64,000 nt of DNA, from assembly GCF_009931435.1 (NCBI RefSeq), contig NZ_CP043414.1; one strand, given 5' to 3'. Each line of letters opens with the position of its first letter. Position 1 is the first letter of the stretch. Shown one piece after another: positions 6,001 to 9,000 of the stretch. The stretch is from Escherichia coli (GTDB lineage Bacteria; Pseudomonadota; Gammaproteobacteria; Enterobacterales; Enterobacteriaceae). The position numbers were made by a program.

Positions 6001-9000
6001 CGTCACTCAGGCACGGGTAAACCTGGCGGAGCGTACTGCGCTGGTGATGGGCAGTGCCTCCCCACAAGATTTAGTGCAGGCGGTGGAAAAAGCGGGCTAC
6101 GGCGCGGAAGCGATTGAAGATGACGCGAAACGCCGTGAGCGCCAGCAGGAAACCGCCGTCGCTACCATGAAGCGCTTCCGCTGGCAGGCAATTGTCGCAC
6201 TGGCGGTGGGTATCCCGGTGATGGTCTGGGGGATGATTGGCGATAACATGATGGTCACCGCTGACAACCGCAGCCTGTGGTTAGTTATCGGCCTGATAAC
6301 GCTGGCGGTAATGGTTTTCGCCGGCGGGCATTTTTACCGTAGCGCATGGAAAAGCCTGCTGAACGGTGCGGCGACAATGGATACGCTGGTGGCGCTGGGT
6401 ACTGGCGTGGCGTGGCTCTATTCAATGAGCGTCAACCTGTGGCCGCAGTGGTTCCCGATGGAAGCGCGACATCTTTATTACGAAGCCAGTGCGATGATTA
6501 TCGGTCTGATTAATCTCGGTCATATGCTGGAAGCGCGCGCACGTCAGCGTTCTTCAAAGGCGCTGGAGAAATTACTCGATTTAACCCCGCCGACGGCGCG
6601 CCTGGTCACTGACGAAGGTGAAAAAAGCGTGCCGCTGGCAGATGTTCAGCCTGGTATGTTACTACGCCTGACGACCGGCGATCGTGTACCGGTAGATGGT
6701 GAAATTACCCAGGGCGAAGCGTGGCTGGATGAAGCAATGCTGACGGGCGAACCTATCCCACAACAAAAAGGCGAAGGCGATAGCGTTCATGCCGGTACCG
6801 TGGTGCAGGACGGTAGCGTGCTGTTTCGTGCCAGTGCGGTTGGCAGCCATACTACGCTGTCACGGATCATTCGTATGGTGCGCCAGGCCCAGAGCAGTAA
6901 ACCGGAAATCGGCCAGTTGGCGGATAAAATCTCTGCCGTATTTGTGCCGGTAGTGGTGGTGATTGCGCTGGTCAGTGCGGCAATCTGGTACTTCTTTGGT
7001 CCGGCACCGCAAATTGTTTATACCCTGGTGATTGCCACTACGGTACTGATTATCGCCTGCCCGTGTGCGCTGGGGCTGGCAACGCCAATGTCGATTATTT
7101 CCGGCGTAGGGCGTGCGGCTGAATTTGGCGTGCTGGTGCGGGACGCCGACGCGCTGCAGCGCGCCAGTACGCTCGATACCGTAGTATTCGATAAAACCGG
7201 GACGCTGACGGAAGGTAAACCGCAGGTTGTCGCGGTGAAAACATTTGCTGATGTTGACGAAGCGCAGGCGCTGCGTCTGGCGGCGGCACTGGAACAAGGT
7301 TCCAGCCATCCGCTGGCACGGGCGATCCTCGATAAAGCAGGCGATATGCAGCTGCCGCAGGTCAACAGCTTCCGTACATTGCGTGGGCTGGGCGTGAGCG
7401 GTGAAGCAGAAGGTCATGCGTTATTGCTGGGTAATCAGGCGTTGTTAAATGACCAGCAAGTCGATACTAAAGCGATTGAAGCAGATATTTCAGCCCAGGC
7501 ATCGCAAGGGGCAACGCCTGTGCTGCTGGCGGTTGACGGGAAAGCGGTAGCCCTGCTGGCTGTACGCGATCCATTGCGTAGTGATAGCGTGGCGGCGCTG
7601 CAACGTCTGCATAAAGCGGGATATCGTCTGGTGATGCTAACCGGGGATAACCCGACCACCGCCAATGCGATCGCCAAAGAGGCAGGGATTGATGAGGTGA
7701 TAGCCGGGGTGCTGCCAGACGGTAAAGCCGAAGCGATCAAACGTCTGCAAAGTGAAGGACGTCAGGTGGCAATGGTGGGTGACGGCATTAACGACGCGCC
7801 AGCACTGGCTCAGGCGGATGTCGGTATTGCTATGGGTGGCGGCAGTGATGTTGCCATTGAAACCGCGGCGATTACCCTGATGCGCCATAGCCTGATGGGT
7901 GTTGCGGATGCGCTCGCAATTTCCCGCGCAACGCTGCGCAACATGAAGCAGAACCTGCTCGGTGCGTTTATCTACAACAGCATTGGTATTCCGGTCGCCG
8001 CCGGTATTTTGTGGCCGTTCACGGGAACACTGCTTAACCCGGTAGTAGCCGGGGCAGCAATGGCACTCTCGTCGATTACCGTAGTGAGTAACGCCAACCG
8101 GTTGCTGCGGTTTAAACCGAAAGAGTGATTGTTATTTACTTAATGCGTTTGTGAGATCCAGTTCTTGTTGCGCTCCTTTTATGAGTCATGCCATATAAAG
8201 TGACTGGCGCAAGGAGCGCGCAGGGGGCGGCCAATCGCCGCCGCCCCCTGCACCCCCGGGCTCTGGCGAACAAAATCGCCGCTGCGCGGTACCCTCGGCT
8301 TATCCCTTGCGGCTACCGGGTCGGGCGCGAGGTAACATCCCTGTAAAACGCGCCCTCAGCCCACATCCATGTGGGCTGCCCCGGCCTTCAGGGAACGCCT
8401 CGGCGATTTTGACGCCACCAACACCCGTGCAGTCTTTCGTTTCAAAGCAAAAACAATTTTTCGATCATATTTAAGCTACCACTGAACAAGCCTCATAACT
8501 CCATTTGCGCCATCCCTCACCGCGCGCTAGCATGATATTTCACAAAGGGAGGTCGTATGGATCTGTTGTACCGGGTAAAAACGCTTTGGGCCGCGCTGCG
8601 CGGCAATCATTACACCTGGCCTGCTATCGATATCTCTCTTCCCGGCAATCGCCATTTTCATCTGATTGGCAGTATTCATATGGGCAGCCACGATATGGCT
8701 CCCCTGCCCCCCCGTTTGCTCAAAAAGCTCAAAAACGCCGATGCGCTGATCGTCGAGGCGGATGTTTCCACCAGCGATACGCCTTTTGCCAATTTGCCTG
8801 CCTGCGAGGCGCTGGAAGAGCGCATTAGCGAGGAGCAATTACAAAATCTGCAAAACATAAGCCAGGAGATGGGTATTTCTCCATCGCTCTTTTCTACCCA
8901 ACCGCTGTGGCAAATCGCGATGGTTCTTCAGGCAACGCAAGCGCAAAAACTGGGGCTGCGGGCAGAATATGGTATCGATTACCAGCTATTGCAGGTGGCG

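What the first reader, a model, noticed from the sequence alone, without database searches (positions are those of the whole stretch)
8129..8556. GC-rich, hairpin-dense non-coding element where K-12 is expected to carry ybaQ
About 430 bp between copA and ybaP contains no ORF >=60 aa on either strand yet is unusually GC-rich for an intergenic region and packed with perfect stems (11-bp cagggggcggc/gccgccccctg, 10-bp cagcccacat/atgtgggctg, gcgctcc/ggagcgc, and a long-range pair around ggcgaacaaaatcgccg / cggcgattttgacgcc). From memory, K-12 has the small HTH regulator gene ybaQ between ybaP and copA; it is absent here. The element could be a repeat-family member (one stretch, aagtgactggcgcaaggagcgcg, loosely resembles an ERIC/IRU arm), a structured RNA, or a decayed remnant.
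Basis: partly seen in the sequence, partly recalled or inferred. Interest (0 to 1): 0.5.

Follow-up and report, generated by a model that had tools for sequence, protein, structure and literature searches.

The report
Extra copy of TRIP1/RRS repeat
The GC-rich, hairpin-packed stretch between copA and ybaP is a published E. coli repeat (TRIP1e, a copy of the "replication risk sequence"), which in about 6% of strains sits where K-12 has the small gene ybaQ; it is real but already described.

Summary
Window 8129-8556 is the copA-ybaP spacer. ybaQ is absent from the whole 64-kb window.

The core (about 8163-8433) is neither ERIC/IRU nor a ybaQ remnant. It is TRIP1e, described at exactly this spot by Li et al. 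2024 (38 bp after the copA stop, 124 bp before the ybaP start). TRIP1 is the same family as the RRS elements of Pham, Cox and Goodman. Those are DNA-level elements whose G-quadruplex strand, when it is the lagging-strand template, blocks the polymerase and leaves a post-replication gap.

The window copy is 94.5% identical to K-12 RRS-lysO. It carries the exact published G4 20-mer at 8238-8257 (minus strand). By synteny and GC skew, that strand is the lagging-strand template.

Three results go beyond the papers I read:
- 40 enterobacterial copies show strong, strand-specific compensatory covariation, including in the hairpin that overlaps the G4.
- Three GGA-bearing loops are conserved across the copies (the first invariant, the others nearly so).
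- The core resembles the Rfam motif TwoAYGGAY, but scores below threshold.

Verdict: already known; modest interest.

The parts
8163..8433 (-). TRIP1e repeat, a full-length RRS-type element. The minus strand is the published 'G4 strand'.
   Evidence: 94.5% identical over 271 bp to K-12 TRIP1a/RRS-lysO and 93.7% to TRIP1c/RRS-dusC; the two K-12 copies are 94.1% identical to each other. The position matches Li et al. 2024 (PMC10888264): 38 bp after the copA stop and 124 bp before the ybaP start, i.e. about 8167-8432.
8238..8257 (-). G-quadruplex-forming 20-mer GGGGGTGCAGGGGGCGGCGG
   Evidence: Exact match, the only one in the window, with 0 expected in shuffles. The sequence is as given by Pham et al. 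(PMC10592627).
8220..8251 (-). 12-bp perfect G+C hairpin whose 5' arm (on the minus strand) overlaps the G4 20-mer
   Evidence: I3. It is helix 11 of the consensus fold, in which 4 of 12 pairs show changes on both sides, for example C:G to A:U twice in the ST131 copy.
8263..8419 (-). Multi-hairpin domain closed by a long stem (about 8263-8281 paired with 8401-8419)
   Evidence: Folds. Helices 1-2 have 9 of 18 pairs with changes on both sides. This stretch aligns with Rfam TwoAYGGAY, model positions 1-168, at 30.2 bits, below the gathering score of 43.
8357..8378 (-). Hairpin 1, minus-strand loop CAUGGAUG (GGA is the complement of 8366-8368)
   Evidence: I5. The loop is invariant in 40 copies while the stem covaries: A-U to G-C in 16 copies and a different stem sequence in L011.
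8323..8355 (-). Hairpin 2, minus-strand apex UUACAGGGAUGUUA (GGGA is the complement of 8338-8341)
   Evidence: (I15). GGA is kept in all 40 copies and the apical pair A-U changes to G-C in 20 of them. It matches 11 of 12 positions of the CsrA SELEX consensus RUACARGGAUGU (consensus from PMC4347634).
8285..8322 (-). Hairpin 3, minus-strand loop AAGGGAUAAG (GGGA is the complement of 8303-8306)
   Evidence: Fold. GGGAUAAG is conserved in 37 of 40 copies.
8170..8219 (-). Terminal hairpin GCGCUCCUU ... AAGGAGCGC with a variable interior
   Evidence: I7. It is helix 12 of the consensus fold; the interior differs between species while the stem is kept.
8125..8162 (.). Allele-specific AT-rich left flank, part of the 360 bp that replace the K-12 segment
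   Evidence: No homology to K-12; 32% G+C.
8434..8484 (.). Allele-specific right flank
   Evidence: No homology to the K-12 copA-ybaP interval. Its first ~30 bp loosely resemble the flank of TRIP1a.
8485..8556 (+). ybaP upstream region shared with K-12
   Evidence: 96% identical to K-12 from 8485 onwards.
5624..8128 (+). copA (context, left neighbour)
   Evidence: 834-aa ORF; annotated copA in the closest genome and in K-12.
8557..9351 (+). ybaP (context, right neighbour)
   Evidence: 264-aa ORF; annotated ybaP, TraB/GumN family.

Best explanation
The element is TRIP1e: an extra, full-length copy of the TRIP1 repeat, also published as the Replication Risk Sequence (RRS). It occupies the copA-ybaP spacer in a minority of E. 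coli strains, in place of the ybaQ-containing segment of K-12.

It most likely acts as DNA, not as a gene. When the replication fork unwinds this region, the minus strand of the window is transiently single-stranded as the lagging-strand template. That strand carries the G4 20-mer and a dense, conserved set of hairpins. It folds, blocks the lagging-strand polymerase, and leaves a post-replication gap of up to about 2 kb that SSB and RecA occupy and that is later filled.

Shown here: its identity, the exact G4 motif, its orientation (by synteny and GC skew), and evolutionary conservation of the fold on that strand. Inferred from published experiments on the K-12 copies and on ectopic insertions: that this particular copy triggers gaps.

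As an additional repeat, it is also a substrate for homologous recombination with the other TRIP1 copies.

On the confidence figure: identity as TRIP1e/RRS is near certain, while gap-triggering by this copy is perhaps 0.65. The figure given blends the two.
For: Identity:
- 94.5% over 271 bp to K-12 RRS-lysO/TRIP1a. That is as close as the two K-12 RRS are to each other, 94.1%.
- The location is the one published for TRIP1e (PMC10888264).
- 346 of 5426 complete genomes carry this allele.
- The exact G4 20-mer lies at 8238-8257 on the minus strand.

Orientation:
- The window is the reverse complement of K-12 here (copA is + in the window and - in K-12). The G4 strand therefore equals the K-12 + strand at about 0.509 Mb, on the right replichore, which is the lagging-strand template.
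- The same reasoning reproduces the published orientation of both K-12 RRS.
- The window's minus strand has a net positive GC skew of +0.023 over 63 kb.

Published function:
- RRS inserted at three ectopic sites each created a new RecA/SSB-ssDNA peak when the G4 strand was the lagging-strand template (PMC10592627).
- In vitro, gaps form at nearly every replisome encounter (bioRxiv 10.64898/2026.06.16.732529).

Conservation of a single-strand fold, in 40 copies from Escherichia, Klebsiella, Enterobacter, Pseudocitrobacter and Raoultella:
- 99.2% of cells are paired, against about 42% when the partners are slid.
- 22 of 72 pairs have compensatory double changes, against 0-5 when slid.
- 0 of 500 shuffles reach the observed values.
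- There are 83 G.U cells against 4 A.C cells, so the selected fold is on the G4 strand.
Against: - No experiment has been done on a TRIP1e copy. Gap formation here is an extrapolation.
- This copy is not at the position the RRS papers link to function. Those sit about 650 kb from dif, flanking the Ter domain. This one is about 406 kb further towards the origin than RRS-lysO, so any role as a Ter boundary does not apply.
- Orientation is not fixed in nature. TRIP1a is flipped in O157:H7 and TRIP1c in ST131. Li et al. report 27% and 49% reversed copies.
- The relative weight of the G4 and the hairpins is unknown. The hairpin overlapping the G4 covaries, and a related subtype (B) keeps that hairpin without G5 tracts.
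- The three conserved GGA-bearing loops are not explained by a simple polymerase-block model.
Confidence: 0.8

Rival explanations
1. It encodes, or is part of, a structured RNA read from the minus strand. This would be a TwoAYGGAY-like RNA whose two or three GGA-bearing hairpin loops bind CsrA, or another loop-reading protein, as a decoy or cis-regulator.
For: - Rfam TwoAYGGAY (clan CL00106) aligns over its full length, model positions 1-168, on the minus strand at 30.2 bits, E = 0.054. Other copies score 30.6-33.1 bits, and modules in related elements reach 37-41.8 bits against a gathering score of 43.
- The architecture is the same as the published motif: a long closing stem and two hairpins with ACAUGGAUGU and ACAGGGAYGU loops. 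Compare the Psychromonas rows of the original alignment and its description.
- TwoAYGGAY was proposed to bind CsrA (PMC4333381).
- The loops CACAUGGAUGUG and UUACAGGGAUGU fit the SELEX consensus RUACARGGAUGU, with GGA in a hairpin loop. The two GGA triplets are 28 nt apart.
- The GGA loops are invariant while the stems covary. G.U pairs far outnumber A.C, which points to one folded strand.
Against: - It is below Rfam's gathering score in every copy tested.
- There is no sigma-70-like promoter or intrinsic terminator in 7900-8800 on the relevant strand. The conserved ends carry no U-run.
- In the window and at K-12 TRIP1a, the minus (G4) strand is antisense to both neighbours.
- Across 63 copies there is no preferred orientation relative to transcription: in tandem-gene settings 10 are G4-sense and 11 C-sense.
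- In situ flips occur between strains.
- The strand asymmetry is equally explained by folding of the lagging-strand template DNA.
- A full-text search found no paper linking CsrA with these loci.
Confidence: 0.12
2. It is a selfish, non-autonomous mobile element (MITE-like) with no host function. On this view the conserved fold serves its own mobilisation, and this copy is simply a recent insertion.
For: - Presence or absence varies at five E. coli loci, with 0-5 copies per genome.
- At least 6 copies in K. pneumoniae ATCC 13883 match the scan pattern, and a mislabelled K. pneumoniae chromosome has 13 matching places. Enterobacter sp. ENT03 has 7 copies.
- The element lies in either orientation at the same locus.
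- 81 of 106 flanking gene ends are 3' ends, as for other extragenic repeats.
- In Pseudescherichia and Enterobacter the unit is a 600-700-bp pair of inverted modules with terminal inverted repeats.
Against: - I saw no target-site duplication and no associated transposase. There is no match in 50,697 phage records. The plasmid hits I inspected are chromosomes or chromosome fragments filed as plasmids.
- The RRS papers report conserved position across enterobacteria and conditional essentiality of at least one copy in K-12.
- TRIP1e replaces other DNA rather than interrupting it, so no clean empty site exists.
Confidence: 0.12
3. In this context its main effect is on the copA transcript. The plus-strand version of the hairpins would act as a 3' stabiliser or a barrier to read-through into ybaP, as REP/BIME elements do.
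For: - The element starts about 35 bp after the copA stop.
- The plus strand also folds strongly, -134 kcal/mol, z = -5.2.
- There is no separate terminator-like site after copA.
- The K-12 allele has REP-type repeats at the equivalent place.
- Most copies lie at gene 3' ends.
Against: - There is no U-run after any hairpin.
- The covariation asymmetry favours the other strand.
- This role would be a side effect shared with any stable hairpin, and it does not explain the conserved loops.
Confidence: 0.08
4. It is a decayed remnant of ybaQ or of the higBA-type toxin-antitoxin pair found here in other strains.
For: It occupies the same interval as ybaQ.
Against: - There is no nucleotide similarity to the 727-bp K-12 segment.
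- tblastn with YbaQ gives no hit.
- The sequence is instead 94% identical to repeats at unrelated loci.
Confidence: 0.01

Closest known systems
TRIP1e repeat (TRIP1 family of Rudd 1999; types a-e of Li et al. 2024, Genes 15:236, PMC10888264)
   Same: Same locus, same distances to copA and ybaP, same length (about 265 bp) and same G+C (62-65%). About 94% identical to TRIP1a. A minority allele: 232 of 6725 genomes in the paper, 346 of 5426 here.
   Different: Nothing material; this is that element. The paper does not mention that ybaQ is displaced, the RRS work, the G4, covariation, or copies outside E. coli.
RRS-lysO and RRS-dusC of E. coli K-12 (Pham et al. 2023 NAR, PMC10287960; Pham et al. 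2024, PMC10592627; Kusi-Appauh et al. 2026 preprint)
   Same: Same sequence family, with identity equal to that between the two K-12 copies. The G4 20-mer is exact. The G4 strand is on the lagging-strand template. The predicted fold is the same.
   Different: The chromosomal position differs: about 406 kb origin-proximal of RRS-lysO on the same replichore, not at the Ter-domain flank. It is present in only about 6% of strains. No functional data exist for this copy.
TwoAYGGAY RNA motif (Rfam RF01731; Weinberg et al. 2010)
   Same: Long closing stem, two adjacent hairpins with ACAUGGAUGU and ACAGGGAYGU apices, many copies per genome in a gamma-proteobacterium (Psychromonas), and no linked gene class.
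   Different: Scores 30 bits against a gathering score of 43. The second loop has R where the motif has Y. It is very G+C-rich. It has an extra third GGA hairpin, a G4-bearing hairpin and a terminal hairpin.
ERIC/IRU and REP/BIME extragenic repeats
   Same: Intergenic, palindromic, at gene 3' ends, and variable between strains.
   Different: No match to either ERIC end. It is much longer and has far fewer copies than REP, which occurs about 32 times or more per genome. REP is what the K-12 allele carries at this spot.
Neisseria gonorrhoeae pilE G4
   Same: A G-quadruplex on one strand that creates a replication-linked gap. Pham et al. cite it as the only comparable bacterial case.
   Different: It is a short, single motif tied to antigenic variation. 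It needs transcription of a small RNA (from my own knowledge). It is not a 270-bp multi-hairpin repeat.

Membership tests
TRIP1 repeats, type TRIP1e (Li et al. 2024) | High identity (about 89-94%) to TRIP1a over about 265 bp | tested here: met
   94.5% over 271 bp (window 8163-8433) against K-12 TRIP1a.
TRIP1 repeats, type TRIP1e (Li et al. 2024) | Located 38 bp downstream of the copA stop and 124 bp upstream of the ybaP start | tested here: met
   The copA stop ends at 8128 and ybaP starts at 8557. The homology block 8163-8433 therefore lies 34 and 123 bp from them; the small differences reflect where the repeat ends are drawn.
TRIP1 repeats, type TRIP1e (Li et al. 2024) | 62-65% G+C and a very stable predicted fold | tested here: met
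   65% G+C. MFE -153.2 kcal/mol on the minus strand, z = -6.7.
RRS (Replication Risk Sequence) | Contains the G4-forming sequence GGGGGTGCAGGGGGCGGCGG | tested here: met
   Exact match at 8238-8257, minus strand.
RRS (Replication Risk Sequence) | G4 strand is the lagging-strand template | tested here: met
   Inferred from synteny with K-12 (right replichore) and from the window's GC skew. The reasoning reproduces the published orientation of both K-12 RRS. It assumes that this strain has the K-12 chromosome layout.
RRS (Replication Risk Sequence) | Sits about 650 kb from dif, as one of an inverted pair flanking the Ter domain | tested here: not met
   The K-12-equivalent position is about 0.5085 Mb, some 406 kb further from dif than RRS-lysO at 0.915 Mb. 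It is an additional, off-site copy.
RRS (Replication Risk Sequence) | Triggers RecA/SSB-bound post-replication gaps on the lagging strand | not testable with these tools
   Needs ssGap-seq or a replication assay. Published ectopic RRS insertions did so at all three sites tried.
TwoAYGGAY RNA (Rfam RF01731) | Covariance-model score at or above the gathering score (43 bits) | tested here: not met
   Window 30.2 bits. Other TRIP1 copies 30.6-33.1 bits. The best module in a related element scores 41.8 bits.
TwoAYGGAY RNA (Rfam RF01731) | Two terminal loops with AYGGAY inside a long closing stem | tested here: inconclusive
   Loop 1 is AUGGAU, which fits. Loop 2 is AGGGAU in the window, with R in place of Y. 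It is AUGGAU or AUGGAC in two of the 40 aligned copies (L047, L064). The long closing stem is present and covaries.
ERIC / IRU | Matches the conserved ERIC end sequences (ERIC2 and ERIC1R primer sites, recalled from memory) | tested here: not met
   No match in the window with up to 3 mismatches. Only a 10-nt string, AAGTGACTGG, is shared.
CsrB/CsrC-type CsrA-sequestering sRNA | An independent transcription unit with many GGA-loop hairpins | tested here: not met
   There are only three GGA loops. No promoter-like or terminator-like site is found. There is no Rfam hit to CsrB, CsrC or Rsm families at E up to 10.

The most novel reading that the evidence does not exclude
TRIP1/RRS may be the enterobacterial, G+C-rich branch of the TwoAYGGAY-type elements. 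On this reading, what selection preserves is not the G-quadruplex as such but a strand-specific multi-hairpin fold displaying three conserved GGA-bearing loops of the kind CsrA reads.

Two outcomes are possible. Either RRS elements also act as RNA, or recruit a loop-reading protein to the single-stranded template. Or the TwoAYGGAY 'RNA motif' found in gut Clostridia and Psychromonas is itself a DNA-level replication-gap element. Neither link appears in the TRIP1, RRS or TwoAYGGAY papers I could search.
Probability: 0.2. Interest if true: 0.6.

Novelty: already known. Interest (0 to 1): 0.3.

Why it matters
The finding adds no new kind of element. TRIP1e at copA-ybaP was published in 2024, and the family's replication function in 2023-2026.

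Its practical value is as a natural experiment. About 6% of E. coli strains carry a third or fourth full RRS, with an intact G4 on the lagging-strand template. It lies 406 kb origin-proximal of RRS-lysO and well outside the Ter flank. Such strains could show whether position matters for RRS function.

The comparative results here suggest the published G4-centred model is incomplete. They are the strand-specific covariation (including the G4-overlapping hairpin), the conserved GGA loops, a G5-less subtype, and the resemblance to TwoAYGGAY. They also give concrete mutants to test.

Tried and rejected
- **ERIC/IRU.** Rejected: no match to either ERIC end.
- **ybaQ remnant.** Rejected.
- **Phage or plasmid origin.** There is no phage match. 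The plasmid-collection hits I inspected are mislabelled chromosomes or chromosome fragments.
- **Coding potential of the 5' extension in Pseudescherichia and Enterobacter.** ORFs are inconsistent between copies, so I treated it as non-coding.
- **Local GC skew around 47 copies, to infer which strand is the lagging-strand template in other species.** Both K-12 positive controls came out with the wrong sign on these short flanks. The test is uninformative and I discarded it.
- **Promoter and terminator scan.** Nothing was found on either strand within the element.
- **Rfam.** Only TwoAYGGAY appears, always below its gathering score.
- **Literature link between CsrA and the TRIP1 loci.** None was found.
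- **Listing all copies in K-12.** I could not do this directly, because the similarity tool shows one place per record. I took the K-12 loci from Li et al. and confirmed aqpZ-lysO and dusC-yohP in K-12 itself. I saw the partial putP-efeU copy only in another E. coli record.
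Full report
**Observation**

Window 8129-8556 is exactly the spacer between copA (5624-8128, +) and ybaP (8557-9351, +). The longest ORFs within it are 55, 52 and 45 aa.

- a 12-bp perfect stem, 8220-8231 with 8240-8251;
- a 10-bp perfect stem, 8357-8366 with 8369-8378;
- a 9-bp perfect stem, 8170-8178 with 8211-8219;
- a 16-nt, 88% long-range stem, 8271-8286 with 8396-8411.

The 266-bp core is 65% G+C against 51.7% for the window, a value reached by 0.06% of windows of that size. 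Both strands fold far better than shuffles. The minus strand gives -153.2 kcal/mol (z = -6.7) and the plus strand -134.0 kcal/mol (z = -5.2).

K-12 MG1655 has ybaQ between ybaP and copA. Homology between the window and K-12 ends at 8124 and resumes at 8485, so 360 bp here stand in for 727 bp of K-12. YbaQ has no tblastn match anywhere in the 64 kb.

**What it is**

A megablast of the spacer against 5426 complete E. coli genomes matched 5425 of them, with a median of four places per genome. One of those places is the ybaP-upstream flank that was part of the query. Only 346 genomes match over 80% or more of the query, that is, at this locus. Elsewhere the match is to query positions 35-305 (window 8163-8433) at 91-95% identity.

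Those other places are unannotated intergenic regions:
- aqpZ-lysO, in K-12 and others;
- dusC-yohP;
- a shorter copy at putP-efeU.

A literature search identified the family. It is TRIP1, named by Rudd in 1999 and surveyed by Li et al. 2024 (PMC10888264). They define five types at five loci. [quoted passage not shown] It is 265 bp long, 94% identical to TRIP1a, and present in 232 of 6725 genomes. The window element fits on every count.

The same repeats were found independently as the Replication Risk Sequences RRS-lysO and RRS-dusC, and the authors say explicitly that RRS equals TRIP1 (PMC10287960; PMC10592627).

**How it most likely works**

The RRS papers report the following:
- One strand carries a G-quadruplex-forming sequence, GGGGGTGCAGGGGGCGGCGG.
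- In K-12 that strand is the lagging-strand template at both loci.
- Pol I, II and IV stall there in vitro.
- RecA and SSB accumulate on about 2 kb of lagging-strand ssDNA next to the element.
- RRS moved to three other sites do the same.
[quoted passage not shown] In the window, the exact 20-mer is at 8238-8257 on the minus strand. The window is inverted relative to K-12 here, because copA is + in the window and - in K-12. The G4 strand therefore corresponds to the K-12 + strand at about 0.509 Mb, on the right replichore. That is the lagging-strand template.

I checked this reasoning on K-12. It places the G4 of RRS-lysO (+ strand, 915,191) and of RRS-dusC (- strand, 2,229,193) on the lagging-strand template, as published. 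The window's net GC skew agrees.

So this copy has every sequence feature needed to act as a programmed gap trigger. That it does so is inferred, not shown.

It is not at the position the authors link to function. It lies about 406 kb origin-proximal of RRS-lysO, on the same replichore and in the same orientation.

**The locus**

The copA-ybaP interval is multi-allelic:
- K-12-type genomes have ybaQ, annotated as a HigA-family antitoxin, plus REP-type repeats. Part of the K-12 interval recurs a median of 32 times per genome.
- B2 strains such as 536 have ybaQ next to a RelE/ParE-family toxin gene.
- The TRIP1e allele has neither.

There is no clean empty site, and I saw no target-site duplication. 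How TRIP1e arrived therefore cannot be read from the junctions.

**Comparative analysis beyond the papers**

A pattern that allows the first hairpin stem to vary was scanned over one genome per prokaryotic species. It returned 53 stretches. All are Enterobacteriaceae apart from a few evidently contaminated assemblies. They include at least 6 copies in K. pneumoniae ATCC 13883 and 7 in Enterobacter sp. ENT03. A mislabelled K. pneumoniae chromosome has 13 matching places.

Forty TRIP1-type copies were aligned on the G4 strand (A3). They give a consensus fold of 72 pairs:
- 99.2% of cells are paired, against about 42% when the partners are slid by 1-3 columns.
- 22 pairs have changes on both sides, against 0-5 when slid.
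- None of 500 shuffles reaches the observed values.

One-sided changes give G.U on this strand in 83 cells, but A.C in only 4. The fold is therefore selected on the G4 strand as a single strand, not as a cruciform.

The hairpin that overlaps the G4 covaries at 4 of its 12 pairs. For example, GGGGGCGGCGG paired with CCGCCGCCCCC becomes GGGGGAGGAGG paired with CCTCCTCCCCC in ST131. So the pairing is under selection, not only the G runs.

Three loops keep a GGA across the copies: CAUGGAUG (invariant), ACAGGGAYGU (GGA kept in all 40) and AGGGAUAAG (37 of 40).

A second subtype (B) occurs in Enterobacter, Pseudescherichia and some Escherichia. It keeps the multi-hairpin core and a G+C hairpin but has no G5 tracts.

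**Resemblance to a known RNA motif**

The only Rfam family that aligns is TwoAYGGAY (RF01731). It aligns over its full length on the G4 strand, at 30.2 bits against a gathering score of 43. Other copies score 30.6-33.1 bits. Modules of related elements score 37-41.8 bits.

The original description fits the TRIP1 core. It specifies two terminal loops with AYGGAY and a closing stem that is 'often very large'. The Psychromonas rows of the original alignment show many copies per genome, with ACAUGGAUGU and ACAGGGACGU apices.

TwoAYGGAY was proposed to bind CsrA (PMC4333381). The window's loops fit the SELEX consensus RUACARGGAUGU, with GGA in a hairpin loop.

Several points count against an RNA role:
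- No promoter- or terminator-like signal is found.
- The G4 strand is antisense to both neighbours in the window.
- Copies show no preferred orientation relative to transcription. In tandem-gene settings 10 are G4-sense and 11 C-sense. 81 of 106 flanking gene ends are 3' ends, as for extragenic repeats generally.
- In situ flips occur: TRIP1a in O157:H7 and TRIP1c in ST131.

I therefore keep the RNA reading as a rival, and its link to TwoAYGGAY as the most novel reading not excluded.

**Verdict**

Its proposed family (ERIC/IRU) is wrong and the 'remnant' idea is refuted. The element is already known by name at this locus (TRIP1e), and its family has a published, experimentally supported mechanism (RRS).

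Interest is modest. It is a natural off-site RRS copy that displaces an orphan antitoxin gene. The covariation and GGA-loop results suggest the G4-centred model is incomplete.

Noticed in passing
window 9350-9433 (-): sroB/ChiX small RNA between ybaP and ybaK. Rfam RF00368 scores 82.1 bits (gathering score 44). K-12 chiX is in the same place.
   Followed up: partly
window about 10058-11358 (+): Two ORFs (266 aa with a GTG start, and 204 aa) lie between ybaK and ushA, where K-12 has only 36 bp. The closest genome annotates a DUF6896 protein and a hypothetical protein there. This looks like a strain-specific insertion.
   Followed up: no
window 8125-8484 versus L001 4082-4875 (K-12): The copA-ybaP interval is multi-allelic in E. 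coli. K-12-type genomes have the orphan HigA-type antitoxin ybaQ plus REP-like repeats. B2 strains have ybaQ plus a RelE/ParE toxin gene. 346 of 5426 genomes have TRIP1e and no ybaQ.
   Followed up: partly
L008 2501-2791 (O157:H7 aqpZ-lysO); L007 2501-2771 (ST131 dusC-yohP): The TRIP1 copy is flipped in place relative to K-12 while the flanking genes keep their order. This would put the G4 strand on the leading-strand template. The flipped unit includes about 15-20 bp of shared flank. The mechanism is unknown.
   Followed up: partly
L021 3663-4253; L019 531-1236; L031 7992-8634; L029 1849-2500: In Pseudescherichia vulneris and Enterobacter sp. ENT03 the repeated unit is 600-700 bp. It consists of two diverged TwoAYGGAY-like modules in inverted orientation with terminal inverted repeats (21 nt, 86%). 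There is no consistent ORF.
   Followed up: partly
L036 8731-9010; L049 303-582; L057 825-1104; L014-L017; L054-L056: A second subtype of the element shares the multi-hairpin core. It replaces the G5-tract hairpin by CCAGGGTGGTGG...CCACCCTGG and ends in CACGTTCAC...GTGAACGG. It occurs in Escherichia species as well as Enterobacter.
   Followed up: partly
window 8111-8127 and 8430-8446: A 17-nt, 82% complementarity joins the last codons of copA and the sequence just beyond TRIP1e, bracketing the whole element. By my rough estimate about 0.1 such pairs are expected by chance in this region.
   Followed up: no
L052, L018, L040, L024: Enterobacterial TRIP1-bearing contigs appear in assemblies labelled Bacillus sp., Desulfacinum MAG, Sporobacter termitidis MAG and 'Proteobacteria bacterium'. 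The Bacillus contig is 583 bp at 0.7x coverage. These are almost certainly contamination or mis-binning.
   Followed up: no
L020 about 3254-3560; L028 about 6640-6950: Some copies carry an insertion with yet another hairpin of the same kind (CCCCAGGGAUGGGG, GGCCCAUGGAUGGGCC). The GGA-loop hairpin therefore seems to be a modular, duplicable unit.
   Followed up: no
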